A stretch of DNA of 64,000 nt from an uncultured Gemmatimonadota bacterium (GTDB lineage: Bacteria; JAAXHH01): NCBI GenBank assembly GCA_951812955.1, contig OX638340.1, forward strand, positions 1,568,001 through 1,632,000, given 5' to 3'. The notes under the pieces are model-generated. The model did not search any database, was not told where the DNA came from, and was given only the letters and a program-made list of their open reading frames with translations. Numbering within the stretch: the stretch's first letter is position 1; each line of letters opens with the position of its first letter. Both the position numbers and the translations under genes were made by a program. Shown one piece after another: positions 507 to 54,172 of this stretch.

Positions 507-3500
507 AGCTCTGCCACCTCCTGGGACACCGGTTGCCCGGTTGTTCTTGTGAATAGCTCGTATACCTTTGCCACGGCCGTCTCGATCGTCATGTAGATGA
601 GCGGCACGAGGACCAGCGTCACCACCGTACCGGCGATCAGGCCGCCGATCACGGTGATGGCCATGGGCGCACGCAACTCGGCGCCTTCACCCACGCCGAT
701 GGCCATGGGCAGCAAGCCGAGCACGGTGGTTGCCGTCGTCATCATGATGGGCCACAACCGAGTCTGCGCCGCCTCGACAATGGCGTCCTGCAGTTCCGTT
801 CCCTTCCGGCGCAACTGGTTGATGTAGTCCACCAGCACGATAGCGTTGTTTACCACGATCCCGGTCAGCATGATCACTCCGATCAGCACAACCACGCTGA
901 TCGTCTGGCCCGTGAGCACCAGCGTCGCTACTACGCCAATGATCGAGAACGGAAAAGTGAACATAATCACGAAGGGATGGAGCAGCGATTCGAACTGCGA
1001 CGCCATGACCAGATAGACGAGAAAGATCGAGAGCAGAATGGCGAACTGCAGGCTCGTGAAAGCCACCTGCATTTCCTCGTTCTGCCCCTTTATCCCCACG
1101 ACGAAATCGATAGGAAGCATGAAGCCGTCTATGATCCCCTGAATGTCTTCGGCCGCGTCTCCGAGCGAACGGCCCGACAAACCCGCGGACACGATGGCGA
1201 CCCGTTGCTGGTTGACCCTCCTGATCTCGCTCGGGCCCTGGGCGACACGGACTTCCGCCACGGCCGAGAGCGGAACGGACACCGCGCCTTCCGGGTTTAC
1301 CACCAGCCGCCGTATGGCGTCCAGGCTCAGCCGGGTCTCGTCCTCGGCCCACACACGGATGTCGATCTTCCGGTCCCGCCTCGTTAGCTCCGTGGCCACG
1401 TTGCCCTGGACCTTGTTCTGAACGATCTGGGTGACTGTGCCCAGGTTGAGGCCCAGGTTGGCAAGCTTCCTTCTATCGAAGAGGATCTGCACCTCGGGGT
1501 TTCCGCCTTCCATGCTGGCCTTCACGTCGGTCAGGCCGGGCACCAGGGACATCTCCGACGCGAGGTCTTCGGAAACTTCCGTCAGCCGGGTAAGGTTGTA
1601 TCCGCTGACTTCCACCTCCACCGGATTCTTGAAGCTGAAGAGCGCGGGACGGGCGAACTCGGGCGCTTCGATGCCGGGTATGGGTTCGAAACTGGTCCGC
1701 AAGCGGTTCATGACTTCCTCTTCCACCGCACCGCGGAGTCCGGGTTCAAGCCGGATGTGCAACTGCCCGATGTTCTCCCGTTCCTCGCCGGCGTTGCCGC
1801 CGGACTGGCCCATGGTTCCCGCCAGCACGTACACCGTGCTCACTTCCGGGTAGTCTGAGGCGATGTCCGACATGCGAATCAACACGTCCTCGGTTACCGG
1901 CAGCGGCGTACCCACGGGCAGCTTGACATTGACGAAGAACTCGCCCTGGCTCATCTGCGGGATCAGTTCGATACCGATCGTGGGAACGACATAGAGGGAA
2001 CCTGCCAGCACGGCGGTCCCTGCGAAAAGCGTGAGCGCGCGGTTGACCAGGGCCCATCGGAGGAAGGGCGGGTAGGCCCGGCGGATGACGGGGAAGATCC
2101 GGTCGAAAACCCAGCCCGCGGGCCAGAGTACGGTGCGCACGATCGCCCATGCCGACCAGAGCGTCCATCGCACGAGATAAAACACGCCGGTTACGACATA
2201 TCCCAGTACCTGGGAGAACCCGTTCCAGATCGCGCCGAAAATGGTACGGATCTTACCCAGCGCCGTAGTCGGTTCCTGCGCGGATTGATCGTCCGCGTCG
2301 TTTATGGACGCTTCCCGGTCTCGGTGCAGGATCGACGATATCACCGGTATCAGGGTGACGGCCACCAGGGTGGCCACGATGAGCGAGAAAGTGACGGCCA
2401 GCGCAAGGTCCCGAAACAACTGACCCGCGATGCCTTCCACAAAGACGATGGGCACGAAGACGCACACCGTGGTTAGCGTTGCGGCCACGACGGCCTGTCC
2501 GACCTCCGATGCGCCGAGGCGAACCCGTTCCGCAACGGGCTGATCTCCCCCTCGTCTTCGGTGCCGGTCGATGCCCTCCAGCACCACGATGGAGTTGTCC
2601 ACCAGCATTCCGACCCCCAGGGCCAGGCCGCCGAGGGACATGATGTTCAGCGAGACGTCGAAAACATAGAGAAAGAAAAACGTGGTGACCACCGAAATGG
2701 GGATGGACACGCCGATGATGAGACTGCTCGAACTACGTAGGAAGAGATACAGGACCAGGATGGCGAGTATACCGCCGTACAAGGCCGTCTTGAGCACTTC
2801 GTCCACCGACTGCTGGATGAAAATCGACTGGTCGAAGACGACTTCCAGATTCACCCCGGCGGTGAGTCCCTCCATGTCCGCCCGCACCGAGTCCAGCCGG
2901 TCCTTGACCACGCGCCCGACCTGGATCGTATTGGTTCCGGCTTCCTTGTAGATGGCGATCTCGATACTTTCCCGGCCGTCGATCCGCGCGGAGAGCTTGC
3001 GTTCCTTGTGGCTTTTTGAGACCGAGGCTACGTCGGAAAGCAGGATGGGCACGGTGTTGACCTGGCCGACGATGATATCGCCGATCTCGTCCACGGCCTG
3101 GAACTCGTTCAGGATTCGCACCAGGTATTCCGTCTCGCCGTCCTTGATGGTACCGCCCGCGATATTGACGTTTTCCTGCTCGAGCCGGGTGGCCACCTGG
3201 GTGATGGGAATCCCGAGGCTGGCCAGCCTGGATTCGTCCAGCTCTACGTGGATTTCTTCTTCCAGTCCACCGCTGATCTTGACGGCGGCGACGCCCTCGA
3301 GGGCTTCAAGCTCGCGCTTGATCTCCTCTTCCGCCATGATCCGAAGCGCGGTAAGGCTCTCGTTACCTGACAGGGCAATGCGCAGGATCGGGTCGAGGCT
3401 CGGGTCGAAGCGAAGCAGAATGGGCTTCTCGGCCGCCTGGGGCAAATTGAGCAGGTCGATCTTCTCCCGCACGTTCAGGCTGGCGAAGTCCATGTTGGTG

Positions 3501-9386: not shown

Positions 9387-10253
9387 TCACTGAAAACGCA
9401 CACCCGCCTTCGCTGCGGATTCCACCAGAAACCGCCTGACCTCCTCCACCTGTCCATAGTCGGTCAGGTGTTCCACGACCACACACGTCCATTCCGGCAA
9501 GGCCGAAGCGCGGCACAACAGGCGCCCGTAGTCCAGCACGCCCTGTCCGGCGGGCCGTTCCTCGAGGTGTACGATCGACTGTACCTCCCGGGCCGCCGAG
9601 TCCTTGGCGTGGACGTTCACGATTCGGCTTCCAAGGCGGTCGAAGGCATCGTCCATAAAAGCGCCCGAATCATACAGCGAAAGGGGATCGAGGATGTTGG
9701 CCGGATCGAAGTTGATGCCGACTCCGGGTTGGTCGATCTCCTCTAAAAGCGCTACGGCGCGGTCCACGGTGGACAGGATCGTCATGAGCGACATCTCCGG
9801 CGCGACGGATATGCCGAAATCGGCCGCGAACGGCGCGATTTCCTTCAACGCGACGGCCAGACGATCCAGCGCTTCCTCGCCGTGATTCTCCAGATGGGGA
9901 TACCATGCGTTCGCGGGGTGCATGCCCCCGGCCTCCGTGAGTAACACCCGGCAACCGAGGGCCGCGGCCAGGGGCACGCGATCCCGCAGGATCTGCAAGT
10001 GGGCCGCCGATTCACCAGGATCCGGACGCACGAACGGAGTGCCCACGCTCCAGACCTGGCCGATGGCGATCCCTTCCCCGTCCAGGATCTTTCGGACCTT
10101 GCCGGCAGCGTCCTTATCGACGGCGACGGACCGTTCCAGGTCCACGCCCACCGCGGAGAAACCAAGGTCCCTGATCCAGCTCGCGGTCCCCTTCGTGATC
10201 CGGTCGAGCGGCGGAACGAAACTATCCAGGCAGAGTCTCATGGGAGATTCCAA
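9387..10253 (-). CDS. Sugar phosphate isomerase/epimerase (xylose-isomerase-like TIM barrel)
   Basis: AP-endonuclease-2/xylose-isomerase-like TIM-barrel signatures (NVHAKD, VVVEH, divalent-metal ligand pattern). Confidence 0.75.
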   Translation of the reverse strand: MESPMRLCLDSFVPPLDRITKGTASWIRDLGFSAVGVDLERSVAVDKDAAGKVRKILDGEGIAIGQVWSVGTPFVRPDPGESAAHLQILRDRVPLAAALGCRVLLTEAGGMHPANAWYPHLENHGEEALDRLAVALKEIAPFAADFGISVAPEMSLMTILSTVDRAVALLEEIDQPGVGINFDPANILDPLSLYDSGAFMDDAFDRLGSRIVNVHAKDSAAREVQSIVHLEERPAGQGVLDYGRLLCRASALPEWTCVVVEHLTDYGQVEEVRRFLVESAAKAGVRFQ

Positions 10254-10288
10254 ATAACTGATTAACGCTTGTTTAATGAGTTAGTTAC

Positions 10289-10398
10289 GCGGATGATCGA
10301 GTGCTGCCGCACGGATGACAGAGCGCCGCCTTACGGATGATCGAGCGCTGCCGCACGGATGATTGAGTGCTGCAACACGGATGATCGGGCGCTACCGC
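10289..10398. repeat. Five tandem copies of a 22-bp direct repeat (consensus ACGGATGATCGAGYGCTGCCGC) in a divergent intergenic region
   Basis: Read directly from the sequence. Units start at 10289, 10311, 10333, 10355 and 10377. Confidence 0.9.
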
Positions 10399-10407
10399 GT
10401 GAAGAAA

Positions 10408-10437
10408 TTGACACTTTTGTATGTAATTTCATAATAT
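10408..10437 (+). promoter_or_regulatory. Sigma70-like promoter: TTGACA, 17-bp spacer, ATAATA, in an AT-rich tract just downstream of the iteron array
   Basis: TTGACA at 10408-10413 and ATAATA at 10431-10436. About 75 bp upstream of the methyltransferase start. Local AT-richness contrasts with the GC-rich genome. Confidence 0.5.
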
Positions 10438-10511
10438 ATGTATATTGAACGTGCGCAATAACGTATGCAATTATATTACGATTCCGCGCGAAGGCATATG
10501 CGAAGGAGGGC

Positions 10512-11153
10512 ATGCCGGTGAGCAGCAAGGAATTCTTTGATCGCGTCGCCCCGGACTGGGACGAAATGCGCGAGGGGTATTATTCCGAGGACGTCAGGGT
10601 GGGCGCCCTGGCGGCCGCAGCGGTCGAGAAGGGCAAAATCGCCGCGGACATCGGCGCCGGTACGGGCTTTATTTCGCAGGGTCTGATCGAGGAAGGGCTT
10701 CAGATCATCGCGGTCGACCAGTCAGAGGTCATCCTGAATGAAATGAAGGAAAAGTTCGCCCGATGGTCATCGATCGAATATCGCGTAGGGAACGCCCAGG
10801 ATATACCGATTCCTGATGAAACGGTCGACTACGCCTTTGCCAATATGTGTCTCCACCACGTTGAATCACCGCCTGTCGCCATCCGGGAAATGACAAGAAT
10901 CCTGAAACCGGCAGGAAAACTGGTGATCACGGACGCGGACGAGCATGAATTCGAGTTTCTGCGCGAAGAGCACCATGACCGCTGGCTGGGTTTCAAACGA
11001 TCCGATATCAGATCATGGTATCTGGAAGCGGGACTGGGAGAGGTAAGTGTCGAAAGCATAGGCTCCCTATGCGAAGTGCAGTCTTTATGTTGTGAAGAAT
11101 TCGCCCGTATCGGGATATTCGTGGCCTCGGGAGAGAAACGCGCAGGGCGTTGA
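10512..11153 (+). CDS. Class I SAM-dependent methyltransferase (Methyltransf_11/UbiE-like)
   Basis: Motif I IADIGAGTGFIS, post-I acidic residue and motif II. GGAGG RBS 6 nt upstream of the ATG. Confidence 0.8.
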   Translation: MPVSSKEFFDRVAPDWDEMREGYYSEDVRVGALAAAAVEKGKIAADIGAGTGFISQGLIEEGLQIIAVDQSEVILNEMKEKFARWSSIEYRVGNAQDIPIPDETVDYAFANMCLHHVESPPVAIREMTRILKPAGKLVITDADEHEFEFLREEHHDRWLGFKRSDIRSWYLEAGLGEVSVESIGSLCEVQSLCCEEFARIGIFVASGEKRAGR

Positions 11154-18845: not shown

Positions 18846-20873
18846 ATGAAAAAGATCGACAAGGCGGCGTACCAGAAGCGCCTGGACCGCATCACGGCCA
18901 TCTTCAAGGACATGATGGCTCACGCGACAGAACAGGCCACCTACCGCTGCCCATACAAAAACCGTTTTGACGAATGTACCGCCCGGTTCGGGTGCCGTAA
19001 CCAGCGCAAACCGAGGGAAGCCGGCGGCCTGCTCATGTGCGGAGGGGACGACAAACTCGACTACCGCGGCGCATGGGAGACGGAGGAAGCCCCGCACGAA
19101 AGACCGGAGCAGGTACATACGACGGATCAAAAACCGGACGCACGCCCGTCTGCGGTGCGAGAAGATGTTGTGGCTACGAGCATGGATGAAGCAGATCGTA
19201 CAGGACGGGCCGCGCCGAATGTGACCATGGATACGTCCTCAGATCCACCCGGCGGCACGGTAACCGACGGCACGACGACCCGGCCCGCGGTCATCGGCAA
19301 ATCCATCTTCGATTACGCCGACGACCTCGCCGTCCAGGTGCCCACCTCCTGTTTCCGCAACGGCATATGTCACGAGTGCATCGTGGAAATCAAACAAGGG
19401 ATGGAAGGGCTCGTGCCCAGGTCCAAGCCGGAATCCTTCCTGCGCGAGAACTACCGGCTCGCCTGCCAGGCGCGCGTGATCGACCCCAATGTGGACATCG
19501 CCTTCGCTCCGCTCCGCCGAACGCCCAAGATCCTGACCGTTACCGAAGAAAAGGAAACGCCGCTCGATCCCCTGGTCACCCGGCGGGGCGATGACATCTT
19601 CTACGACGGCGAGCAGGTCGACCTGTTCCGCGGACACGTGTACGGGCTCGCGATCGACCTGGGCACGACCACGGTGGTCATGGATTTCGTGGACCTGGAG
19701 ACCGGCCGGAGCGTCCACGTCTGTTCCTTCGAGAACCCCCAGCGCTTCGGCGGCAGCGACGTGATGCACCGCATCTCATACGACGGCGGGTTCGAGGACG
19801 AACTCTGGAACGCCATCATCAACGCCGTCAACCACGAGATCATGGACTGGTGCGAGCGGACGGAAACCGCGCGGCAGGAGATCTACGAGATCGTCGTGGC
19901 GGGCAACTCCACCATGCGCGACCTCTTCTTCCGCCTCGACGTACAGAGCATCGGCCAGAAACCCTACAAGTCGCAGATCGAAAACGAATACCTCGCGGGC
20001 GAACGAGATACCACGGCGCTGACCATCGGCACCCGGCGGCTCGGCCTGCGGGCCAATCCAAAGGCCCGTGTCTACGGCCTGCCCATTATCGCCAGCCACG
20101 TGGGCGGCGACGTGACGGCCGACCTGGCCACCGTCGACCTGGCTGCGCGGCCGGGCGTATCCATGCTGGTGGACGTGGGCACCAATACCGAGGTGGTCGT
20201 GGCAGGCAACGGACGCATGGTCACGGCTTCGTGCCCCGCCGGTCCCGCCTTCGAGGGCGGCGGAATCAAGTACGGCATGCCAGGCTACGAAGGCGCCATT
20301 GAAACATTGAAGTGGGAAGACGGGCGGTTCGACTGGCGCACCATCGGAGACTCCGCGCCCCAGGGCATCTGCGGCTCCGGGCTGATCGATCTCCTCGCCG
20401 AACTGCGCCGCCACGGCATGATGAGCCCGAAGGGGGTGTTCCCCGACCGGAAACAATTCGAGGTGCCCGTCGTAGCCGAATCCGGCATCACCCTGTCCCG
20501 GCAGGACGCCAGCAACCTGGCCCAGGCCAAGGCAGCCAACTACTGCGGCCAATACATCGTCCTCCGCGCCTTCGGCGTCGCGCCGGGCGACGTGGACCGG
20601 CTCTTCCTTGCGGGCGGTTTCGCCAACTACGTGGACGTGCGAAACGCCATCGACATCGGGTTCCTGGCCCCCGTGCCCGAAGACCGCATCTTCAAGGTCG
20701 GCAACGCCGCCGTCCAGGGTGCCCGGGAGATCCTCCTCTCCCGTTCGCGCCGCAAGGAAATGGAAACGCAGGTCAAGGACATCGAGCACATCGAGCTCGA
20801 GACTACCCCCGACTTTTTCGAGATCTTCGTCGAAGCCTGCCAGTTCAAGCCTATGCCGGGCGTGCTGGTGTAG
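18846..20873 (+). CDS. RACo-type reductive activator of corrinoid proteins ([2Fe-2S] ferredoxin domain plus ASKHA ATPase) with an unusual ~135-aa N-terminal extension
   Basis: Plant-type ferredoxin Cys pattern (CFRNGICHECIV ... LACQARV), then an ASKHA/DUF4445-like region (GLAIDLGTTTVV, VDVGTNTE, ICGSGLIDL). Start is uncertain; in-frame ATGs at about 19182 and 19227 are alternatives. Confidence 0.8.
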   Translation: MKKIDKAAYQKRLDRITAIFKDMMAHATEQATYRCPYKNRFDECTARFGCRNQRKPREAGGLLMCGGDDKLDYRGAWETEEAPHERPEQVHTTDQKPDARPSAVREDVVATSMDEADRTGRAAPNVTMDTSSDPPGGTVTDGTTTRPAVIGKSIFDYADDLAVQVPTSCFRNGICHECIVEIKQGMEGLVPRSKPESFLRENYRLACQARVIDPNVDIAFAPLRRTPKILTVTEEKETPLDPLVTRRGDDIFYDGEQVDLFRGHVYGLAIDLGTTTVVMDFVDLETGRSVHVCSFENPQRFGGSDVMHRISYDGGFEDELWNAIINAVNHEIMDWCERTETARQEIYEIVVAGNSTMRDLFFRLDVQSIGQKPYKSQIENEYLAGERDTTALTIGTRRLGLRANPKARVYGLPIIASHVGGDVTADLATVDLAARPGVSMLVDVGTNTEVVVAGNGRMVTASCPAGPAFEGGGIKYGMPGYEGAIETLKWEDGRFDWRTIGDSAPQGICGSGLIDLLAELRRHGMMSPKGVFPDRKQFEVPVVAESGITLSRQDASNLAQAKAANYCGQYIVLRAFGVAPGDVDRLFLAGGFANYVDVRNAIDIGFLAPVPEDRIFKVGNAAVQGAREILLSRSRRKEMETQVKDIEHIELETTPDFFEIFVEACQFKPMPGVLV

Positions 20874-21122
20874 GGTGGATTGTCGACCTCGGGTATTCTA
20901 TACTAGATCTGGGATGGGAATTCAACTATTGCTATAGATCGGGTTAAAGTACTCACTGATGCATGTTCAGCCTGAGGCCTCCACAAAGAAATCATCGGTT
21001 CGAAAGGTCTGCATTTTGAGTTCCTGAATGTATTGTGATGTCTTTTATGTTGCGTGTTTTCAATATGTACAGTATTCGTTAGAAATATAGATAGTGGTGC
21101 CAACATTTTCATCGAGATTGCT

Positions 21123-21347
21123 ATGCGTCGATTCAAGATCATTGTTGAAGAACATCAGGATGGTTACGTAGCGTATCCATTAGGGCTCTCCGGAATAGTT
21201 GTTGGCCAGGGTGATACGTACGACAACGCGGTAGCGGATGTCAAATCTGCTATAGAATTCCATATCGAGAGCTTTGGAACAACGGTATTTGAGGAAGAAT
21301 CTGACGTTCTTCGCGCTTTCGTCACTGATGCGGAGTTCGTAGACTGA
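21123..21347 (+). CDS. hicB: HicB-like antitoxin (UPF0150 family)
   Basis: MRRFKIIVEEHQDGYVAYPLGLSGIVVGQGDTYDNAVADVKSAIEFHIE matches the HicB/UPF0150 pattern. Lies in a low-GC region. Confidence 0.6.
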   Translation: MRRFKIIVEEHQDGYVAYPLGLSGIVVGQGDTYDNAVADVKSAIEFHIESFGTTVFEEESDVLRAFVTDAEFVD

Positions 21348-21541
21348 TGGCAGGTTTTCCTGTCGACGCACCTCGTCAACGAGTTAAACGTACTCTGAGC
21401 AAACTGGGATTCAAGGTCGTCCGTGAAGGCAATCATATAAACAGTTCTTGTTTCCGCTCTATGCGGAATTACTGTAGTCCATGGCTTTGTTGCCAGCAAC
21501 TCGCTGAGATTCCCCCCTATCGGATATTCCAAAAACACTGA
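21347..21541 (+). CDS. hicA: HicA-like toxin candidate (YcfA family N-terminus), possibly degenerate in its C-terminal half
   Basis: RVKRTLSKLGFKVVREGNHI resembles the HicA dsRBD-like start, but downstream the sequence loses the conserved HP...VP...G motifs. Overlaps the hicB stop in a TGATG junction. Confidence 0.35.
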   Translation: MAGFPVDAPRQRVKRTLSKLGFKVVREGNHINSSCFRSMRNYCSPWLCCQQLAEIPPYRIFQKH

Positions 21542-21550
21542 ACCCGCAAA

Positions 21551-22495
21551 ATGTTCCACCTCCGTCCCGCCCGTCCCTCGTCCGATGAATCGGGCATCGC
21601 TTCCGTCGTCAACGCCTTCGAACAGAATCCGGTTTCAGTAGATACCGTACGCGAGTGGCTGACCCATGGTGCGCCGGGCAGAATCAGCTATCGCCAGGTG
21701 GCTGTGACCCGTGACGACGTCGTTGCAGGTTACGCGGTGTCGGTGCATGAAACCTGGAATCCGGAAGGGCAGTTCTATGCCTGGGTGGGCGTGGCGCCTG
21801 CGTGGCGGGGACGAGGTATCGGCTCAGCGCTGTACATAGACTTGATGCAATTTCTGGAGCAACACGACGCCGGTACGATTACGAGCGAGGTCCGGGACGA
21901 CTGCGCCATCTCGCTGGCATTCGCCGAGCGACACGGATTCGAAAAAGACCGGCATCTGTTTCAGTCGAGCCTGGACCTCGAAGCCTTCGACGAATCACCC
22001 TATCTGGGCACGCTTGGCGGAGTCGCCGAGGCGGGTATACGTGTGCGCTCAATTGCGGATTTCGGCGACACGCCGGACGCTCGCAGGAAACTCTACGAAG
22101 TCAACGCGATAACCGACCAGGACGTGCCTGGCTGGATCGGACCCGGGCTTTCCTTTGAGGAATTCAACGAGTGGGTGTACGTTTCGGAATGGTACCGGCC
22201 GGATGGCCAGTTGCTTGCGGCCGATGGGGATCGCTGGGTCGGGATCTGTGCGGTGCGGCTATACCCCGATGCGTGCCTGGCCTTCAACGTGCACACCGGG
22301 GTGATCCGGGCGTATCGAAAGCGTCATGTCGCGGTGGCGCTGAAACTGGCCGCGATTCGCTATGCCAGGAATCAAGGCGCGCGATCACTCAGTACGCACA
22401 ACGATTCGATGAACGGCCCCATGCTGGCGCTCAACCGGAAATTAGGTTATGTCCCGGAGCCGGGACGGTATACGCTGCGTGGGACGATGACCTGA
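21551..22495 (+). CDS. GNAT family N-acetyltransferase (tandem GNAT-like domains)
   Basis: Acetyl-CoA binding motif AWRGRGIGSALY and a second GNAT-like half. Confidence 0.75.
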   Translation: MFHLRPARPSSDESGIASVVNAFEQNPVSVDTVREWLTHGAPGRISYRQVAVTRDDVVAGYAVSVHETWNPEGQFYAWVGVAPAWRGRGIGSALYIDLMQFLEQHDAGTITSEVRDDCAISLAFAERHGFEKDRHLFQSSLDLEAFDESPYLGTLGGVAEAGIRVRSIADFGDTPDARRKLYEVNAITDQDVPGWIGPGLSFEEFNEWVYVSEWYRPDGQLLAADGDRWVGICAVRLYPDACLAFNVHTGVIRAYRKRHVAVALKLAAIRYARNQGARSLSTHNDSMNGPMLALNRKLGYVPEPGRYTLRGTMT

Positions 22496-22575
22496 AGCCC
22501 TCCGGTACATCTCAGTCATTCAATTCGAGAATGAAGTCCTTTCCAGGCTCACGACACGCAGAACGCGGACGCCCC

Positions 22576-22977
22576 TTACCCTCCCATCATCGCAATACGC
22601 CGTGCCATCCACTCTACGTAGGCCGTACGTGTCATTCCCCGCCTGTCTGCCTCGCTATCTATAAACACCGCCACGCCTTCGTCAATCGCCATATGTATGC
22701 GCACGCTACGCCCGGACTGACGGATTAACGGCACTGTCGTCAGGGCCTCTCCCGGCTCTGTACTAACCTGCTCCAGTTTACTTGGTTGGATTACCCTGTC
22801 CCCATCAGTTTCCGTTTCAATTACGTAATCTCGTAGTGCTTCTTCAGCGTTCAGCAATGCCTCGTCGATGGTGTCGCCCATAGCGGCGATTCCTGGAAGA
22901 TCCGGGAAGGATACGCCATAGGCACCCATTTCACCATCTATCAATGCCGGATATCGGATAGCATTAAATACCTGCAT
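22576..22977 (-). CDS. hicB: HicB family antitoxin with C-terminal ribbon-helix-helix-like DNA-binding region
   Basis: YPALIDGEMGAYGVSFPDLPGIAAMGDTIDEALLNAEEALRDY is a classic HicB N-domain. Immediately downstream of the hicA gene on the minus strand. Confidence 0.75.
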   Translation of the reverse strand: MQVFNAIRYPALIDGEMGAYGVSFPDLPGIAAMGDTIDEALLNAEEALRDYVIETETDGDRVIQPSKLEQVSTEPGEALTTVPLIRQSGRSVRIHMAIDEGVAVFIDSEADRRGMTRTAYVEWMARRIAMMGG

Positions 22978-23001
22978 GTCTGAACCCTCCTACATCAAGG
23001 A

Positions 23002-23244
23002 CTAGATCTGCCAGTTTGCTTTCTTCGCAATGGTTCGTACGACACCTGGCGATATTCTCCTGTGTCTCGGCAGCGTAATTACACCTCGATTACATGGATG
23101 GCGGTAAACGTCATGCTTGGCCCCATGCCGGAACAGGTACCAACCTTCCTTTTTAATCGTCGCTCGATTTTGGTCGTGTTGGATTCCATTAAGCCACGCA
23201 ATTTTGTGCAAATATATGCACATAATGAGTTTCTTGTCAATCAT
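23002..23244 (-). CDS. hicA: HicA family mRNA interferase toxin
   Basis: KKEGWYLFRHGAKHDVYRHPCNRGVITLPRHRRISPGVVRTIAKKANW matches the HicA/YcfA pattern (G-W, HP, TVP, G-T-L). Confidence 0.65.
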   Translation of the reverse strand: MIDKKLIMCIYLHKIAWLNGIQHDQNRATIKKEGWYLFRHGAKHDVYRHPCNRGVITLPRHRRISPGVVRTIAKKANWQI

Positions 23245-23339
23245 TTCTTATTCAGTCGAGTTTCTTGTTAAAACCTCGACTAATGGAGTAATGACACCGT
23301 GGTGGACACAGCCAGTGCGAGATGTACATACGCGGAGTA

Positions 23340-23352
23340 TCTACATTGTAGA
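23340..23352. promoter_or_regulatory. Perfect inverted repeat TCTACA-T-TGTAGA just upstream of the mazE RBS; candidate MazE/MazEF autoregulatory operator
   Basis: Palindrome read directly from the sequence. AGGAGG RBS at 23356-23361; mazE ATG at 23367. Confidence 0.45.
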
Positions 23353-23366
23353 CACAGGAGGCTCGA

Positions 23367-23606
23367 ATGAAATCCCGTGTGAAGAAATGGGGCAACAGCC
23401 TGGCACTTCGCATCCCGAAACCTGTCACGGTCCAGATGGGCGTCAAGGACGATTCACCCGTTGTACTCGTGCTCCGGGGCAAGGAATTGACCCTTGTACC
23501 GTTGGAACGAACTCATCTGAAACTCCCCGAGTTGCTTTCGGGCATCTCGAGACATAACCTGCACGGAAGAACTAGCATCGGAAGCCCCGGTGCCGGTGAA
23601 GCATAA
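23367..23606 (+). CDS. mazE: MazE/PemI-type antitoxin (SpoVT/AbrB swapped-hairpin domain)
   Basis: KKWGNSLALRIPK motif. Sits immediately upstream of the mazF-like gene. Confidence 0.75.
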   Translation: MKSRVKKWGNSLALRIPKPVTVQMGVKDDSPVVLVLRGKELTLVPLERTHLKLPELLSGISRHNLHGRTSIGSPGAGEA

Positions 23607-23962
23607 TGGGTACAACGACCTACGTACCCGTTCGGGGCGAGGTGGTGTGGGTCTACTCCCGAGCGCGGGAGGGATCATACCTGCCTTCGAGGCGTCCCGC
23701 CGTTACCATATCTCCCGAACCCTACAATCGTCGGACCGGCCTGGCTCTTTTCTGCCCGGTCACTGGCGAAGAGAAGGGATATCCCTTCGAAGTCAAGATT
23801 CCACCCGGACTGCCGGTGCCCGGGGTTATCCTGTCCGATCAGTTGGAAAGCGTGGACTGGCGATCCGGTGCGATGGAACGGATCTGTGCGCTGCCCTCGG
23901 AGACGATGGATGAAGTCCTCCGAAAATCCGCGGCGCTGCTCGATGGGGAAGACCGGCCTTGA
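23606..23962 (+). CDS. mazF: MazF/PemK family endoribonuclease toxin
   Basis: YVPVRGEVVWV ... RRPAVTISPEPYNRRTGLALFCPVTGEEKGYPFEV matches PemK/MazF. Overlaps the mazE stop in a TAATG junction. Confidence 0.8.
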   Translation: MGTTTYVPVRGEVVWVYSRAREGSYLPSRRPAVTISPEPYNRRTGLALFCPVTGEEKGYPFEVKIPPGLPVPGVILSDQLESVDWRSGAMERICALPSETMDEVLRKSAALLDGEDRP

Positions 23963-24032
23963 CGGGAAACAGCAATAGTGTCATTACTTCAGATGAGAGC
24001 ATTCGAGAACTGCATGGCACCGGGGAACAACC

Positions 24033-25025
24033 TTGTCTCAGCCAACCATGAAACGCGTCATCAAACCCGAAGGCCTCCACCGGATCGAGATCGAAGAGGT
24101 GCCAATACCCGAGCCGGGTGCCGGAGAAATCCGTGTGAAGGCTGCCTGCAGCCTGATCAGCCGGGGTTCGGAACTGGGTGGCCGTTATACGCGGGAACAC
24201 GCGGTTAGCCCGGACATCATGGGCTATTCCATGGCGGGGACGGTGGACGCCCTGGGGGAAGGCATCGAACACCTGGAAATCGGGGACCGCGTCGTCGCGC
24301 TGGCGCCCCACGCCCAGTACGTCGTCCGGCCTGCCCGGCTCGTTTTTCCGTGGGACCAGACTGTCGTCATGCCCATGCCGGCGGACCTTTCCTTCGACAG
24401 CGCGCCTTACTACCCGCTCACGGCCGGTGCGGTTACCTGGGTGGAAGTGGAGGATATTCAGCCCCAGGACACGGTTGTCGTGCTCGGCCAGGGTCTCGTT
24501 GGCAACCTGATCCTTCAGGTCATCAAGGCGAATGGAGCCGGCAGGGTGGTGGCCGTGGACGCACTGGCCAATCGGTGTGCCTTGGCAGCGGAGTTTGGTG
24601 CCGATACGGTAGTCAACGCCCGCGAGGAAGATCCCGTCAAGGCCGTGAAGCGCCTTACCAACGGATTAGGGGCCGACATCGTGATCTACGCCGTGGGCGG
24701 TCCGGCTGGACCTACAGCGTTTGAGCAGGGACTCGACATGCTCGCCATTGGCGGGCTGATCCACCTGATCGGACTGTACGAGGACCAGCCTCTTTCTCTG
24801 CCTTCAGGTAAGATTCAGGGACGCAAACTGCTGGGAGGTTACTTCCGGACTCAAGCGGGTGCCCGCCAGTCCCGACGCGCCATGGAACTCCTCGCCTCGG
24901 GCGCGATCCGGACCGATCGAATGACCACGCACCGCTTTACCTGGCGCCAGGCAGCCGACGCTTTTGCGCTACTTTACGAGAAACCGAGCGACGCGTTAGG
25001 CGTCCTGCTCGATTGGCAGGATTGA
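24033..25025 (+). CDS. Zinc-type medium-chain dehydrogenase/reductase (MDR) family oxidoreductase
   Basis: GroES-like N-domain and Rossmann VLGQGLVGNL. Polyol/threonine dehydrogenase-like topology. Confidence 0.75.
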   Translation: MSQPTMKRVIKPEGLHRIEIEEVPIPEPGAGEIRVKAACSLISRGSELGGRYTREHAVSPDIMGYSMAGTVDALGEGIEHLEIGDRVVALAPHAQYVVRPARLVFPWDQTVVMPMPADLSFDSAPYYPLTAGAVTWVEVEDIQPQDTVVVLGQGLVGNLILQVIKANGAGRVVAVDALANRCALAAEFGADTVVNAREEDPVKAVKRLTNGLGADIVIYAVGGPAGPTAFEQGLDMLAIGGLIHLIGLYEDQPLSLPSGKIQGRKLLGGYFRTQAGARQSRRAMELLASGAIRTDRMTTHRFTWRQAADAFALLYEKPSDALGVLLDWQD

Positions 25026-28779: not shown

Positions 28780-29628
28780 TCAGCGCTTCCTGGCGATGAT
28801 GTCCTGCCGCGTCGTACTGGCGGTAGTCACCACGACGTTTTCCGCGGAGAAGGCCTCGGTGTCCTCAGTGGGTGGACCGTACAGGGCGTAGGATCCGGCG
28901 GGCATGAAGTAGGCCGAGTACTGTCCGCCTTCGTCAGAATAGACCGTCACCGAATCCGTCCTGCCGGGTTGAAACAAGGTTATGGGGTACCCACTCAGCG
29001 TCACGTCGTCCCGGAGGACCGCCGGCGTGGTGTTGTCGTGCTTGACGCTGCCTGAAACCTGGCCGGAGCTCGCCAGGTCGACCAGGCGGCCTGCCGGCGA
29101 GAACCTCATCCCGGTAATGTCGTGGACCCGTTGGATATCGCCCTCAAATGTGATCGAACGTATCAGGTCGAAATCGATTACGACGTCCGCCTTCCTGCCG
29201 CGCTCGACGACCACCGAGGTGTTTGCTTCGGCGATCATCTCCCTGCCCTGCGGATCCGTATACACTTCGTTGAACTGCACGCCATTCAACAGGGTCACCG
29301 TGACTTCGTGGATGTTGAGGCGTGCGGCGTCGTATCTACCCTCGACCAGGGAGAACACTTCCAGGACCCGCGTATCGCTTCCCCCCAGTTCGAACAGGTC
29401 GACGGTATGGGTCAAGGTGCCGGGGGTTCCGAACTCGCTGTTTGCCGTGGAACGAACGGACACGCCCGACATGACCACCACGACCGATCTGACGTGGTGC
29501 GGGATCGGAGTCTGAGCAGCCAGGCGCAACTGCAGGTCACTGATGACGCTTGATGTCGGGTCGCCGCAACCTGGGATAGCGGTCACCAGGAGCAGGATCA
29601 GAAGGCAATGACAGATTCGTTTTTTCAT
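28780..29628 (-). CDS. Hypothetical lipoprotein (signal peptide plus lipobox AIPGCG), beta-rich
   Basis: MKKRICHCLLILLLVTAIPGCG lipoprotein signal. No confident family. Confidence 0.6.
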   Translation of the reverse strand: MKKRICHCLLILLLVTAIPGCGDPTSSVISDLQLRLAAQTPIPHHVRSVVVVMSGVSVRSTANSEFGTPGTLTHTVDLFELGGSDTRVLEVFSLVEGRYDAARLNIHEVTVTLLNGVQFNEVYTDPQGREMIAEANTSVVVERGRKADVVIDFDLIRSITFEGDIQRVHDITGMRFSPAGRLVDLASSGQVSGSVKHDNTTPAVLRDDVTLSGYPITLFQPGRTDSVTVYSDEGGQYSAYFMPAGSYALYGPPTEDTEAFSAENVVVTTASTTRQDIIARKR

Positions 29629-29933
29629 GATCCGGATAGTCCATGAAGTCCGGCACGCACTGATTTATCCAACCTGTTCCGCAATCGGTTCAGCCTGAAA
29701 AGTACAGTTTCTTGACGTCTGTGTAAACTTGTTCCTTTTAAGCAGTTAACGCGATTTCCCGGAGCTTCGGCCACCGTATCTCCTGTCGTAAGCAGGTTAG
29801 GCGCAGGGTAAGCGACGGAAGCCTTAAAGGGTCTATTGAATCAAATGACTGCGGGGTAATCACTTTCTATTGCCAAAGAGACCGCATTTACCTATATCTA
29901 TAGAATTGTGAACTTCACAGCCGGAGTTTTTCG

Positions 29934-30437
29934 ATGATCGACGCCAGCCGGAAATTTCTCTTCGCCATCGCCGCCACGCTGCTCGTGGTTACACTTAGCG
30001 TTTCGGGCGAACTCTCGGAGGCCGTCCCGGAGCCCCCGGTCGACGCACCAACGGGCGCATCAGCCAACAAACCCATCCAGGTAGACTGGAACCTCCTGTC
30101 CAGCCTCAACTACCGTACCGGCAAACCAAGCGCGGAGTTGGCGGCGCTCGATGGCAAATTCGTAAAGGTCCCCGGATTTACGGTAACGCTTGAAGACTGG
30201 GCGTCCTCTGCGAAGGAATTCCTCCTCGTTCCCTATGTCGGCGCCTGCATCCACACGCCCCCGCCCCCGCCCAACCAGCTCGTCTACATAGAGATGGTGA
30301 AGGGCAAATGGGCGTTTCTGGACGGGTGGAACCCGGTGTGGGTCGAGGGCGTACTCAAGATCGAGATGACCAAGAGCGTGTACGGCCCCGTCGGCTTCAC
30401 CATCACCGGCCAGCGGGTCTATCCGTACGAGTACTGA
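29934..30437 (+). CDS. Secreted DUF3299-like protein, encoded upstream of a MacB/FtsX-type ABC transporter
   Basis: Signal peptide, then VPYVGACIHTPPPPPNQLVYIEM, which is characteristic of DUF3299. Gene neighbourhood with an ABC ATPase and FtsX permease. Confidence 0.6.
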   Translation: MIDASRKFLFAIAATLLVVTLSVSGELSEAVPEPPVDAPTGASANKPIQVDWNLLSSLNYRTGKPSAELAALDGKFVKVPGFTVTLEDWASSAKEFLLVPYVGACIHTPPPPPNQLVYIEMVKGKWAFLDGWNPVWVEGVLKIEMTKSVYGPVGFTITGQRVYPYEY

Positions 30438-32731: not shown

Positions 32732-33216
32732 TGGGTTCTTCGCTCGACTTCCACCGAGCGACGGGATCTTGGGGCTCCTGGCAGGCTCCGGCCGAACCAC
32801 GGATTCCTGGCGTCCGTGTAAGATTATTCTTTTTAAGCAGTTACCTCAGATTTGCCCTGCGCGTCAATTCTTCCTCGATTACCGGAACCAGTCTGTCTGA
32901 ATTCGTAACCACACCGGAGATCATGCGAGTTTGCAAGTTTTTTCACTTTACGCTCGGCTCCGGCGACAGTCACCTGGCTACTTATAAAAAACAACGTCCT
33001 GAATAACTTGTTATTGTATACTTCCATCCATTCCCCGTCCTAATCCAGAAAACGCGAGCTCCAGGGGGAGGACTGCAGACGTTGAATCTTGGCCGGGACA
33101 GCTTATAACTTGATACCCGGCAGCAGGTCGTGTCCTGGAGGCAAGGTAAGGCATTACGGACAGCCATTTTACGTTGACACCCGCCGATCCGTGAGCCTAT
33201 ATTGCCTGCCTGCCAG

Positions 33217-33301
33217 GGTGGGGTGTCTGAGTGGCCGAAAGAGACGGTCTTGAAAACCGTTGTACCTTTGCGGGTACCGTGGGTTCGAATCCCACCCCCA
33301 C
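33217..33301 (+). tRNA. tRNA-Ser (anticodon TGA), type II with long variable arm
   Basis: Manually folded. Acceptor GGTGGGG/CCCCACC, D-stem GTCT/AGAC, anticodon stem ACGGT/ACCGT with loop CTTGAAA, T-arm GTGGG-TTCGAAT-CCCAC, discriminator G. CCA is not encoded. Confidence 0.85.
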
Positions 33302-33325
33302 CGTCCAACGGCTCTGGAGATCATT

Positions 33326-33417
33326 CCGGAGAGGTGCGAGAGTGGCTGAATCGGATCGACTGCTAATCGATTGTGGGTCAAAAAACCTACCGAGGGTTCG
33401 AATCCCTCCCTCTCCGT
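33326..33417 (+). tRNA. tRNA-Ser (anticodon GCT), type II
   Basis: Manually folded. Acceptor GGAGAGG/CCTCTCC, anticodon stem ATCGA/TCGAT with loop CTGCTAA, T-arm GAGGG-TTCGAAT-CCCTC, discriminator G. Confidence 0.85.
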
Positions 33418-33489
33418 CAGAAGTATCAAAGCCGGTCCTGGTCGGCCGAATATCAGAAGTATCAAAGCCGCTCCTGGTCGGCCGAATAG
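33418..33489. repeat. Two tandem 36-bp direct repeats (TCAGAAGTATCAAAGCCGNTCCTGGTCGGCCGAATA) beginning at the nucleotide after the tRNA-Ser(GCT) 3' end
   Basis: Read directly. Copies at 33418-33453 and 33454-33489. Confidence 0.85.
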
Positions 33490-51624: not shown

Positions 51625-52074
51625 TCAGCGCGCGCACGCCGGACACCGGTCCGTGTCCGGATCGTGGATGGGCTGTCCACACTCTGAGCACGGGCCAAGT
51701 GGATATTCGTCGGGTTGCGTGCGCGAACCGTGTTTATAGTTGATGGTCCGCCATACGGTCTCGCCGTCTTTCTCCGAGTAGCACAGCCAGCGGCCCTCTT
51801 TCTTACCGTCGTAGGATTTGCCCACGTGGGGACCGTAGTCACCTTCCCACTTCCTGGTTCCGTTCTCGTGGTAACAGACGTACCATCCTTCGTTCAGTCC
51901 GTTTTTGAAGAGACCTTCGCTCTGCTTGTTGCCGTTGCTGAAATACTGGATCCAATTACCGTCCTTTACACCCATCCGGTAATTGCCCTCGCTGCGTTTG
52001 TTGCCGTTGGCGAAATAAGAGACCCAGTAGCCGTCTTTCTTGCCGTTTACGGTATTGCCTTCGGAAAGGGCCAT
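51625..52074 (-). CDS. MORN-repeat (YwqK-like) protein with C-terminal CxxC..CxxC zinc-ribbon
   Basis: Tandem MORN-variant repeats (GKKDGYWVSYFANGNK / GVKDGNWIQYFSNGNK / GLNEGWYVCYHENG). C-terminus reads CSECGQPIHDPDTDRCPAC. Confidence 0.6.
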   Translation of the reverse strand: MALSEGNTVNGKKDGYWVSYFANGNKRSEGNYRMGVKDGNWIQYFSNGNKQSEGLFKNGLNEGWYVCYHENGTRKWEGDYGPHVGKSYDGKKEGRWLCYSEKDGETVWRTINYKHGSRTQPDEYPLGPCSECGQPIHDPDTDRCPACAR

Positions 52075-52253
52075 GGCCGATTCATCCTGTAATTAGATAT
52101 CTGAAGTACAGTCTATCGATTTCAGGATTAGCCTTGCGGTGCACAATGTACCCATGTTATTAAGGATACGACGTTTATTCAAGACCTTCTTGCGACATCG
52201 CGCCTGCGACATCGCACGACCGCTTTGAACCGCCACACGACAGGGATCCCGCC

Positions 52254-54170: not shown

Positions 54171-54172
54171 AC

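What the first reader, a model, noticed from the sequence alone, without database searches (positions are those of the whole stretch)
20875..23965. Low-GC toxin-antitoxin islet: HicB/HicA-like, GNAT, HicA/HicB, MazE/MazF
Between the corrinoid locus and the MDR dehydrogenase gene, the sequence composition drops sharply (AT-rich at 20880-21550 and 23000-23360).

Three type II TA modules lie within 3 kb:
- A B-A-ordered Hic pair whose HicA looks C-terminally degenerate (no conserved HP...VP motifs after GNHI).
- A canonical hicA-hicB pair on the minus strand with an RHH-extended HicB.
- A mazEF pair preceded by a perfect TCTACA-T-TGTAGA operator palindrome.

This looks like a horizontally acquired addiction island next to the accessory methyltransferase cassette.
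Basis: partly seen in the sequence, partly recalled or inferred. Interest (0 to 1): 0.55.

Follow-up and report, generated by a model that had tools for sequence, protein, structure and literature searches.

The report
Old toxin-antitoxin islet, mostly decayed
This is a small cluster of three ordinary toxin-antitoxin gene pairs plus an acetyltransferase, inherited across a whole clade of sponge- and coral-associated bacteria rather than recently acquired, and in this genome two of the three toxin genes are broken, so only mazEF looks like a working pair.

Summary
The low-GC dips and the genes are real. GC falls to 0.40 at about 20850-21150, the lowest in the window, and to 0.44 at 22800-23500.

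- **hicA1 (21347-21541)** is not frameshifted. A 189-bp stretch is replaced by AAA at 21439-21441. Near-identical contigs L001 and L002 keep a full 78-aa HicA. L045 and L046 carry a second, independent deletion.
- **hicA2** is not intact here. The conserved gene is 62 aa and starts at 23189. The window lacks one base between 23154 and 23155, so the 80-aa ORF is an out-of-frame fusion. None of 10 related contigs shares this gap, so it is either a private mutation or an assembly error.
- **The islet is not strain-accessory.** GNAT and mazEF lie between the same flanking genes in all 17 species representatives compared (RACo 83-96% identical), and hicB2 in 15 of them. One outgroup lacks the islet.

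hicA2 was lost through at least five different deletions. hicB2 nevertheless stays under strong purifying selection (dN/dS 0.07), behind an invariant promoter palindrome. mazEF is intact in every species.

Verdict: ordinary members of known families. The decay pattern is instructive, with one mildly interesting conserved orphan antitoxin.

The parts
20874..21122 (.). AT-rich leader (GC 0.40) upstream of hicB1. Together with hicB1 and hicA1 it forms a ~680-bp segment. That segment is absent from most related species, where GNAT starts about 58 nt after the RACo stop.
21123..21347 (+). hicB1: a 74-aa single-domain HicB-like antitoxin. It has only the toxin-binding N-terminal fold and no DNA-binding domain. 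In this window it is an orphan.
   Evidence: Pfam HicB_lk_antitox gives only 15.5 bits, below the cut-off. There are 813 homologues, about 70% identical across phyla, several named HicB family antitoxin. The AF2 model has pLDDT 87 and its 11 best PDB matches are HicB structures.
21347..21541 (+). hicA1 deletion allele. Codons 1-31 (through GNHI) are HicA and the rest is unrelated read-through. 189 bp are replaced by AAA at 21439-21441. The start overlaps the hicB1 stop (TGATG).
   Evidence: The window ORF matches HicA only at residues 12-31. L001 and L002 have the full 78-aa gene, which scores 45.6 bits against Pfam HicA_toxin. The same junction occurs in L003-L006. L045 and L046 carry a different deletion.
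21551..22495 (+). Two-domain GNAT acetyltransferase of 314 aa. It is a resident gene of the islet and is not part of a TA pair.
   Evidence: Pfam Acetyltransf_1 70 bits. The match to MshD is weak and well below its cut-off. It is present in all relatives and tracks the flank phylogeny best (Spearman 0.74). It is convergent with hicB2.
22576..22977 (-). hicB2: a 133-aa HicB antitoxin with an N-terminal HicB fold and a C-terminal RHH-type DNA-binding region.
   Evidence: Pfam 65.7 bits. B. pseudomallei HicB 6g1n matches at E 1.4e-8 over residues 9-122. dN/dS is 0.067 across species.
23002..23189 (-). hicA2 carrying a -1 frameshift. The conserved ATG is at 23187-23189. One base is missing between 23154 and 23155. 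From the conserved start the product is 36 aa and stops at 23079. The HicA body (23002-23153) is read only in the other frame.
   Evidence: Alignment with L001-L006 and L043-L046. Inserting one C restores the 62-aa HicA2 found in relatives, which scores 46.4 bits against Pfam HicA_toxin.
23205..23240 (-). hicA2B2 promoter and putative HicB2 operator. The -35 TTGACA is at 23240-23235 and the -10 TATATT at 23216-23211. The -10 is the spacer of the palindrome TGTGCA-TATATT-TGCACA (23205-23222).
   Evidence: The promoter scan gives an 11/12 match and the inverted repeat is I6. The 19-nt ATGTGCATATATTTGCACA is invariant in seven loci from six species while its flanks vary. Both ATGs of the 80-aa ORF (23244, 23223) lie upstream of the predicted transcription start.
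23340..23352 (+). Palindrome TCTACA-T-TGTAGA between the mazE promoter region and the Shine-Dalgarno sequence (AGGAGG 23356-23361). It is a putative MazE operator half-site pair.
   Evidence: The perfect form occurs only in the window's species. The half-site GTATCTACA and further TAGAYAC-like copies recur in most species. It is not significant on its own.
23367..23606 (+). mazE: a 79-aa AbrB/SpoVT-type antitoxin.
   Evidence: Pfam MazE_antitoxin 31.7 bits. It is intact in all 20 loci. dN/dS is 0.20.
23606..23962 (+). mazF: a 118-aa PemK/MazF endoribonuclease toxin. Its start overlaps the mazE stop (TAATG). It is the only apparently intact toxin gene of the islet in this window.
   Evidence: Pfam PemK_toxin 67.3 bits. 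Solved MazF 7d28 matches at E 3e-25, with the RRPA and PVT..KGYPFEV motifs conserved. It is intact in all 20 loci. dN/dS is 0.22.

Best explanation
The segment 20874-24032 is an old, clade-wide islet at a variable chromosomal site between the RACo gene and an MDR dehydrogenase gene. The host clade consists of sponge- and coral-associated bacteria whose MAGs are labelled Latescibacterota or Gemmatimonadota.

**Contents**
- A resident two-domain GNAT.
- Three type II toxin-antitoxin modules at different stages of decay.

**State of each module in this window**
- mazEF is intact. MazF would cleave RNA, and MazE would neutralise it and repress the operon at TAGAYAC-type sites upstream.
- hicB1-hicA1 has lost the C-terminal two-thirds of the toxin through a 189-bp deletion. 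This leaves a single-domain HicB1 with no partner.
- hicA2-hicB2 has a 1-nt deletion that uncouples the HicA2 body from its conserved start codon. HicB2 is therefore also effectively an orphan.

**How HicB2 is likely regulated**
HicB2 probably still represses its own near-consensus promoter by binding the conserved palindrome that embeds the -10 box.

**What is shown and what is inferred**
- Shown: gene identities, the lesions, their polymorphism, conservation of the islet across species, and the selection regime.
- Inferred: the RNase activities, the operator binding, and the loss of toxicity of the two hicA alleles.
For: **Families**
- Pfam and PDB matches for HicB2, MazE, MazF, full-length HicA1 and the 62-aa HicA2.
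- The HicB1 fold model matches HicB structures.

**Lesions**
- hicA1: 189 bp replaced by AAA. Intact alleles are in L001 and L002. The same junction is in L003-L006. A second deletion is in L045 and L046.
- hicA2: a 1-nt gap at 23154/23155, repairable in silico to the relatives' protein.
- Other hicA2 changes in related contigs: a nonsense codon in L001, ATG>ATA in L002, and H>P in the LPRH motif in L004 and L006.

**Age and inheritance**
- The islet is present in all 17 species representatives compared, including the basal L014, L018 and L020. It is absent in the outgroup L022.
- Gene identities correlate with flank identities.

**Recurrent toxin loss**
- At least five distinct hicA2 deletion junctions occur among species.
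- mazEF is intact everywhere.

**Selection**
- hicB2 dN/dS is 0.067. It is 0.079 in species that lack hicA2. The flanking genes range from 0.08 to 0.145.

**Promoter and operator**
- An 11/12 sigma-70-type match.
- A 19-nt invariant palindrome spanning the -10 box, found in six species.
- HicB operators that overlap the -10 box are documented for Y. pestis HicB3 (review PMC11594946).
Against: - The hicA2 frameshift is unique to the window (0 of 10 related contigs). The missing base sits next to a run of five identical bases. It may be an assembly error, in which case hicA2B2 would be intact here.
- No activity, expression or DNA binding was measured.
- dS is saturated (above 1) for many species pairs. 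The dN/dS values are most reliable for the closer pairs (dS 0.2-0.5), where they are still 0.05-0.13.
- Some allele discordances show that inheritance is not purely vertical:
  - L028 mazEF is 60-72% identical to the window although the flanks are 96% identical.
  - hicB2 is identical in L014 and L020.
- The mazE promoter itself was not located.
Confidence: 0.75

Rival explanations
1. One reading: a recently and horizontally acquired, strain-accessory addiction island with three working TA modules that stabilise the neighbouring methyltransferase cassette.
For: - Low GC and low GC3.
- The HicB1 family is about 70% identical across unrelated phyla, which suggests the module is mobile.
- hicBA1 is patchy among species and other cargo occupies the same site.
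Against: - The GNAT and mazEF core is present at the same site in all 17 species representatives compared, including basal ones. hicB2 is present in 15 of them.
- No integrase, adjacent tRNA or bracketing repeats.
- Two of the three toxin genes are disrupted in the window.
- Low GC3 of hicB2 persists in all species despite dS above 1.
Confidence: 0.08
2. The 1-nt gap in hicA2 is an assembly or sequencing error, so this strain has a working hicA2B2 module as well as mazEF.
For: - None of 10 related contigs has the gap.
- The missing base abuts a run of five identical bases.
- Adding one base restores a protein identical to the relatives'.
Against: - hicA2 is independently damaged in sister strains (nonsense, start loss) and deleted in many species, so a real private frameshift fits the trend.
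- The missing base is the C next to the run, not a change in the length of the run itself.
Confidence: 0.3
3. The locus is primarily an anti-phage defence hotspot. mazEF, and the hicAB modules where they are intact, would act as abortive-infection systems rather than as addiction or stabilisation modules.
For: - L010 carries a short pAgo system (REase-APAZ plus pAgo; E 4.9e-143 and 2.4e-175) directly after RACo.
- Cargo at the site varies in L019, L014 and L017.
- HicA domains have been proposed to act in phage defence (bioRxiv 10.1101/2023.12.08.570793, title seen).
Against: - No islet protein matches a PADLOC model.
- The toxins are being lost rather than diversified.
- Only one relative carries a recognised defence system at the site.
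Confidence: 0.25
4. The GNAT is the toxin of a GNAT/RHH toxin-antitoxin pair (TacAT/AtaRT-like), with the RHH-bearing HicB2 as its antitoxin.
For: - A GNAT lies next to an RHH-domain protein.
- hicB2 is retained wherever hicA2 is lost.
Against: - The GNAT is 314 aa with two GNAT domains and has an MshD-like architecture. From general knowledge, GNAT toxins are single-domain proteins of about 170 aa.
- The two genes are convergent and so are not an operon.
- L017 and L028 keep the GNAT without hicB2, and L003, L014 and L017 have a broken GNAT.
Confidence: 0.03

Closest known systems
HicAB of Burkholderia pseudomallei and Yersinia pestis HicA3B3 (toxin gene first, HicB with RHH DNA-binding domain)
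   Same: - hicA2-hicB2 has the inverse order, toxin gene first, with a 24-nt spacer and its own Shine-Dalgarno sequence for hicB2.
- HicB2 aligns with B. pseudomallei HicB over both domains.
- The palindromic candidate operator overlaps the -10 box, as reported for Y. pestis BS2 (PMC11594946).
   Different: - The toxin gene is frameshifted in this window and has been deleted in many sister species, while HicB2 stays highly conserved.
- Operator binding was not tested.
Short hicB-hicA cassettes (UPF0150-like single-domain HicB followed by a COG1724 HicA)
   Same: - hicB1-hicA1 has the antitoxin gene first, overlapping stop and start codons, and a 74-aa HicB with only the toxin-binding fold.
- The full-length allele encodes a 78-aa HicA with the GNHI histidine motif.
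   Different: - The window carries a deletion allele that lacks about 47 codons of HicA.
- HicB1 falls below the Pfam HicB threshold.
- It has no DNA-binding domain, so any autoregulation must work in another way.
MazEF (E. coli MazEF; PemK/Kid superfamily)
   Same: - Antitoxin-toxin order with overlapping stop and start.
- AbrB-type MazE and a PemK-fold MazF with full-length matches to solved MazF proteins.
- Palindromic sites upstream.
   Different: - It scores below the NCBIfam equivalog cut-off for E. coli MazF (83.5 bits against 120). It is a family member, not an orthologue.
- Cleavage specificity is unknown.
Orphan antitoxins and decaying TA loci, as catalogued in Klebsiella pneumoniae (PMC7192599)
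   Same: - Antitoxin genes persist in their original context after the toxin is lost.
- That paper proposes anti-addiction or cross-neutralising roles.
   Different: The orphan state here arose repeatedly, through at least five deletion types plus point lesions, across species of one clade. The orphan is also under stronger constraint than its housekeeping neighbours.

Membership tests
HicA toxin (Pfam PF07927 / COG1724) | Full-length match to the HicA profile above the gathering score | tested here: not met
   - Window hicA1: 15.1 bits against 27, residues 12-31 only.
- Window hicA2: the body scores 40 bits inside an 80-aa ORF, but it is out of frame with the conserved start.
- The intact alleles in relatives pass, at 45.6 and 46.4 bits.
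HicA toxin (Pfam PF07927 / COG1724) | Conserved histidine of the G-x-x-H motif, needed for RNase activity (His23/24 in E. coli, B. pseudomallei and S. meliloti HicA; PMC11594946) | tested here: met
   GNHI is retained in the hicA1 remnant and GAKHD in the hicA2 body. In hicA1 the downstream strands and helix of the dsRBD fold are deleted.
HicA toxin (Pfam PF07927 / COG1724) | Growth arrest on expression, relieved by the cognate HicB | not testable with these tools
   Needs expression assays.
HicB antitoxin (Pfam PF15919) | Profile match above the gathering score, with an N-terminal HicB fold plus a DNA-binding domain | tested here: met
   HicB2 scores 65.7 bits over profile positions 1-122 of 123. 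It aligns to B. pseudomallei HicB, including the C-terminal RHH region.
HicB antitoxin (Pfam PF15919) | The same criteria applied to HicB1 | tested here: inconclusive
   - The sequence profile fails (15.5 bits against 27), and a profile search against the PDB gives nothing significant.
- The AF2 model (pLDDT 87) has HicB structures as its 11 best PDB matches: probability up to 1.00, TM 0.62, but E about 0.05.
- Homologues are named HicB family antitoxin by NCBI and JGI.
- There is no DNA-binding domain.
MazEF / PemK-Kid type II TA | PemK_toxin and MazE (AbrB/SpoVT) profile matches above the gathering scores, with antitoxin-toxin order | tested here: met
   - 67.3 bits against 23.1 for the toxin and 31.7 against 24.7 for the antitoxin.
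- The stop and start codons overlap as TAATG.
- Solved MazF proteins match at E 3e-25.
MazEF / PemK-Kid type II TA | Equivalog-level identity with E. coli MazF or MazE (NCBIfam PRK09907 / PRK09798) | tested here: not met
   83.5 bits against 120 for MazF and 29.3 against 113 for MazE. This is membership at family level only.
Recently acquired genomic island | Atypical base composition | tested here: met
   However, the low GC3 is stable across species.
Recently acquired genomic island | Mobility signatures: integrase, an adjacent tRNA, or bracketing direct repeats | tested here: not met
   - The nearest tRNAs are at 33217-33418.
- No direct repeats bracket the islet.
- There is no integrase-sized ORF in the islet.
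Recently acquired genomic island | Presence or absence varies among close relatives | tested here: not met
   - GNAT and mazEF are present in all 17 species representatives compared, and hicB2 in 15 of them. Only the outgroup L022 lacks the islet.
- The criterion is met only for the hicBA1 sub-module.
GNAT/RHH toxin-antitoxin (TacAT, AtaRT type) | A single-domain GNAT toxin co-transcribed downstream of its RHH antitoxin | tested here: not met
   The GNAT is 314 aa with two GNAT domains and is convergent with hicB2.

The most novel reading that the evidence does not exclude
HicB2 may have been domesticated as a toxin-independent factor. It could act as an 'anti-addiction' immunity protein against HicA toxins brought in by mobile elements or phages, as a neutraliser of HicA paralogues elsewhere in the genome, or as a transcription factor.

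Three observations fit this reading:
- hicB2 survives at least five independent deletions of hicA2.
- Its dN/dS (about 0.07) is lower than that of neighbouring housekeeping genes.
- In several lineages it keeps an invariant operator-promoter.

A related hint is that none of the nine strains of the window's species for which both loci could be read has hicA1 and hicA2 intact together. That could reflect interference between the two Hic modules.
Probability: 0.25. Interest if true: 0.45.

Novelty: new member of a known kind. Interest (0 to 1): 0.27.

Why it matters
For annotation:
- Two of the three 'toxins' should be marked as pseudogenes or remnants.
- The 80-aa hicA ORF should not be annotated as a protein.
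- The islet should not be called a recent island.

For biology, the locus is a compact natural series of TA decay:
- Intact, point-mutated, internally deleted and fully deleted toxin alleles occur at one orthologous site, both across about 17 species and within one species.
- The antitoxin is retained under strong constraint throughout.

This makes the locus a convenient system for testing why orphan antitoxins persist in host-associated bacteria. It does not reveal a new kind of system.

Tried and rejected
- Exact-sequence look-ups of the window's GNAT and MazF found nothing. The source genome is apparently not in that collection, so the frameshift could not be checked against an independent copy.
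- NCBIfam gave no match for any of the four Hic proteins.
- Sequence and profile searches of HicB1 against the PDB gave nothing significant. The fold search was needed.
- PADLOC has no model that matches the islet proteins.
- Rfam gave no RNA family in 20500-24300 at E up to 1.
- The terminator scan found nothing above the shuffled expectation.
- A frameshift in hicA1 was considered. None of the three frames after GNHI continues the HicA sequence, and the relatives show a deletion instead.
- The GNAT as a TA toxin was rejected on size, domain count and orientation.
- The other low-GC segments of the window (10.2, 29.6, 32.8, 51.9 and 53-56 kb) were screened by eye for small TA-like ORFs. None was evident. 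No profile search was run on them.
- The mazE promoter could not be placed convincingly by consensus.

Full report
**1. What is in the sequence**

The region between the RACo gene (18846-20873; Pfam RACo_C_ter, Raco_middle, Fer2) and an MDR zinc-dehydrogenase gene (24033-25025) holds seven small genes or remnants:
- hicB1, 21123-21347 (+)
- a hicA1 remnant, 21347-21541 (+)
- a two-domain GNAT, 21551-22495 (+)
- hicB2, 22576-22977 (-)
- hicA2, 23002-23189 (-)
- mazE, 23367-23606 (+)
- mazF, 23606-23962 (+)

Composition is atypical:
- Against a window mean GC of 0.609 (sd 0.047 in 300-bp windows), there are troughs at 20751-21550 (minimum 0.40, the lowest in the 64 kb) and 22801-23500 (minimum 0.44).
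- GC3 rises from 0.42-0.53 in the hic genes, through 0.61-0.70 in mazE, mazF and the GNAT, to 0.72-0.83 in the flanks.

The observation of a low-GC cluster of TA genes is therefore correct.

**2. Family assignments**

- HicB2, MazE, MazF and the GNAT pass the Pfam gathering scores.
- HicB2 aligns with the solved B. pseudomallei HicB over residues 9-122, including the C-terminal RHH-type region (E 1.4e-8).
- MazF aligns end to end with solved MazF proteins (E 3e-25 to 1e-18), with the RRPA and PVT..KGYPFEV motifs conserved. It scores below the NCBIfam equivalog cut-off for E. coli MazF, so it is a family member and not an orthologue.
- HicB1 fails the Pfam threshold (15.5 bits).
  - It has 813 homologues, about 70% identical across Rokubacteria, Methylomirabilales, Brocadia, Nitrospira and others. 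Several are named HicB family antitoxin.
  - An AlphaFold2 model built on 30 of them (pLDDT 87) has HicB structures as its 11 best PDB matches (6g26_B: probability 1.00, TM 0.62, rmsd 2.4 Å).
  - It is a single-domain HicB with no DNA-binding domain.

**3. hicA1 is a deletion allele**

- An exact-protein look-up of HicB2 retrieved six contigs about 96% identical to the window, with the same gene order (L001-L006).
- L001 and L002 carry 189 extra bases exactly after the GNHI codons. They encode a 78-aa HicA, MAGFPVDAPRQRVKRTLSKLGFKVVREGNHISMVRVNPDGTRTPLTMPSHSRIKSSTLRRICTQAGIARKDFLEAYESS. It passes Pfam HicA_toxin over the whole profile (45.6 bits).
- In the window and in L003-L006 those 189 bases are replaced by AAA, at window 21439-21441. 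The junction is identical in all of them, so this was a single event that is still polymorphic.
- Two JGI contigs, L045 and L046, carry a different and larger deletion of the same gene.
'Frameshifted' is not: none of the three frames continues HicA.

**4. hicA2 is not intact in the window**

- In the related contigs the gene is 62 aa: MESNTTKIERRLKKEGWYLFRHGAKHDVYRHPCNRGVITLPRHRRISPGVVRTIAKKANWQI (46.4 bits). It starts at the ATG that corresponds to window 23187-23189.
- The window lacks one base between 23154 and 23155. Translation from the conserved start then gives 36 aa and stops at 23079. The HicA body is read in another frame, which happens to stay open upstream to an ATG at 23244.
- Both upstream ATGs (23244 and 23223) lie within or upstream of a near-consensus promoter (section 5), so they precede the predicted transcript start.
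- Inserting one C restores the relatives' protein exactly.
- A scan of the metagenome collection for either allele found four more contigs, all with the base present. The gap is thus unique to the window (0 of 10). It is either a private mutation or an assembly error, and I cannot tell which.
- It fits a trend among sister contigs:
  - L001 has a nonsense codon at position 14.
  - L002 has ATG>ATA at the start.
  - L004 and L006 have H>P in the conserved LPRH motif.

**5. Promoter and operator**

- On the minus strand, TTGACA (23240-23235), an 18-nt spacer and TATATT (23216-23211) match the sigma-70 consensus at 11 of 12 positions.
- The -10 hexamer is the spacer of a perfect palindrome, TGTGCA-TATATT-TGCACA (23205-23222).
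- The 19-mer ATGTGCATATATTTGCACA is invariant in the window, L003, L008, L007, L024, L021 and L011 while the surrounding intergenic sequence varies. L014 and L020 carry a close variant.
- This is the expected arrangement for autorepression by an RHH HicB. In Y. pestis the main HicB3 operator overlaps the -10 box (PMC11594946). Binding here is inferred.
What recurs across species is the half-site GTATCTACA, with further TAGAYAC-like copies upstream.
- A perfect palindrome of that size is expected about 0.6 times in such a region by chance.

**6. Evolutionary context**

- A search with RACo in species-representative genomes gave 36 loci. The hosts are uncultured MAGs labelled Latescibacterota, Gemmatimonadota or simply 'bacterium', with Poribacteria further out.
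- In all 17 species representatives compared (RACo 83-96% identical), GNAT, mazE and mazF lie between RACo and the MDR gene. hicB2 is there in all but L017 and L028.
- A tree of the flanking proteins places the islet at the base of the clade. The outgroup L022 has an 874-bp, 43% GC spacer at the site instead.
- Identities of the islet genes correlate with those of the flanks: Spearman 0.74 for GNAT, 0.62 for mazE, 0.40 for mazF and 0.28 for hicB2.
- There are clear discordances, which imply some allele exchange:
  - L028's flanks are 96% identical to the window but its mazF is 60% identical.
  - L028's mazE is closest to those of L008 and the basal clade.
  - hicB2 is identical in L014 and L020.
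- hicBA1 is patchy:
  - It is complete in the window's species, L011 and L012.
  - L009 has hicB1 only.
  - L028 has a 5'-truncated hicA1 only.
- The site also holds other cargo:
  - a bPH_1 gene after mazF in most species, lost in the window's species
  - a 313-aa AT-rich ORF in L019
  - a short pAgo system directly after RACo in L010
- No integrase, adjacent tRNA or bracketing repeat is present.
- hicB2 GC3 stays at 0.47-0.65 in every species although synonymous divergence between them exceeds 1. The low GC is a stable feature and not evidence of recent transfer.

**7. Recurrent toxin loss with antitoxin retention**

- hicA2 is intact in only six of the 17 species representatives.
- Among the others, the intergenic sequences show at least five different deletion junctions:
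  - L011 keeps the promoter-operator fused to hicB2.
  - L009 has its own junction.
  - L012, L013, L015 and L019 share one junction, which removed the promoter.
  - L018 and L016 each have their own.
- L017 and L028 have lost the whole module.
- hicB2 nevertheless has the lowest dN/dS of all the genes compared:

| Gene | Median dN/dS |
|---|---|
| hicB2, all pairs | 0.067 |
| hicB2, species without hicA2 | 0.079 |
| hicB2, species with hicA2 | 0.059 |
| DHDPS | 0.08 |
| RACo | 0.12 |
| MDR | 0.145 |
| GNAT | 0.165 |
| mazE | 0.20 |
| mazF | 0.22 |

- Many pairs are saturated at synonymous sites. The closer pairs (dS 0.2-0.5) give 0.05-0.13 for hicB2.
- mazE and mazF are full-length in all 20 loci.
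- Orphan antitoxins in their original context are a known phenomenon, with anti-addiction and cross-neutralisation proposed as explanations (PMC7192599).

**8. Mechanism proposed**

- Shown: the identities, the lesions, the conservation and the selection regime.
- Inferred:
  - mazEF is the only functional pair in this strain. MazF would be an endoribonuclease, and MazE would be its neutraliser and a repressor.
  - The two hicA alleles are non-toxic. hicA1 lacks the strands and helix that follow the catalytic histidine. The hicA2 body is untranslated.
  - HicB2 continues to be made and to repress its own promoter, and it is retained for a function beyond neutralising its neighbouring toxin.
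- Confidence in the overall picture is about 0.75. The main uncertainty is whether the hicA2 gap is real.

**9. Novelty and verdict**

- All components belong to well-known families, and a decaying TA locus with an orphan antitoxin is a known kind of thing.
- The finding is a new member of a known kind, with an unusually clear comparative record of decay.
- Interest is low to moderate (0.27).
- The most novel reading that remains open is that HicB2 has been domesticated for a toxin-independent or trans-acting role (probability about 0.25).

Noticed in passing
L010:11052-13936: In a relative with 85% RACo identity, the position directly downstream of RACo holds a short prokaryotic Argonaute system: an REase-APAZ partner (PADLOC E 4.9e-143) plus a short pAgo (E 2.4e-175). 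The contig ends before the rest of the site can be seen.
   Followed up: partly
window 23963-24032; L007, L008, L011-L013, L015, L016, L018, L019, L024 downstream of mazF: These relatives carry a conserved 125-aa bacterial PH-domain gene (Pfam bPH_1, E 1.6e-48) between mazF and the MDR gene. The window's species has only 70 bp there. L028 and L020 seem to keep only fragments on the opposite-strand ORF lists.
   Followed up: partly
L028:12029-12280: In the sister species, a deletion removed the AT-rich leader, hicB1 and the first 7 codons of hicA1. An 81-aa ORF with an otherwise intact HicA1 body (92% identical) is left immediately after RACo. This locus has neither hicB1 nor hicB2, so it is an apparent orphan toxin body.
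   Followed up: no
window 23254-23284 and the equivalent position in all related loci: An inverted repeat AGTCGAG...CTCGACTAAT lies between the divergent hicA2 and mazE genes and is conserved in every species examined, including those with divergent mazEF alleles. In the window, the -35 region of the hicA2 promoter is also duplicated 31 bp upstream (GAGTTTCTTGTCAA and GAGTTTCTTGTTAA). The function is unknown.
   Followed up: no
window, L001-L006, L045, L046 (hicA1 and hicA2 loci): Both loci could be read in nine contigs of the window's species. None has both hicA1 and hicA2 intact: L001 and L002 keep hicA1 but have damaged hicA2, and the others have hicA1 deleted. The sample is small and the contigs are not independent.
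   Followed up: partly
L019:12133-13074 (islet coordinates 114-1055): A 313-aa AT-rich ORF is inserted between RACo and the GNAT in one species. It has no Pfam match at E up to 0.1 and no PADLOC match.
   Followed up: partly
L003, L014, L017, L020 (GNAT): The GNAT is split or truncated in several relatives: two ORFs in L003 and L014, an internal deletion in L017, and an N-terminal truncation in L020. It is therefore dispensable in some lineages.
   Followed up: no
L014 islet 2596-3465; L017 islet 2074-2943: Two species have an extra 289-aa ORF between the PH-domain remnant and the MDR gene. It was not run against any family library.
   Followed up: no
L028 and L008 mazEF: L028's flanks are 96% identical to the window, but its MazF is 60% and its MazE 72% identical. 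Its MazE is 86% identical to L008's and 83% to that of the basal L020. This points to allele replacement or an old polymorphism at mazEF.
   Followed up: partly
window 52951-56000, 29551-30000, 10201-10550, 51851-52300, 32751-33100: The window has other segments with GC below 0.50. Inspection of their ORFs by eye showed no obvious TA genes. The 53-56 kb stretch contains a membrane-protein-like 348-aa ORF and a 187-aa ORF.
   Followed up: partly
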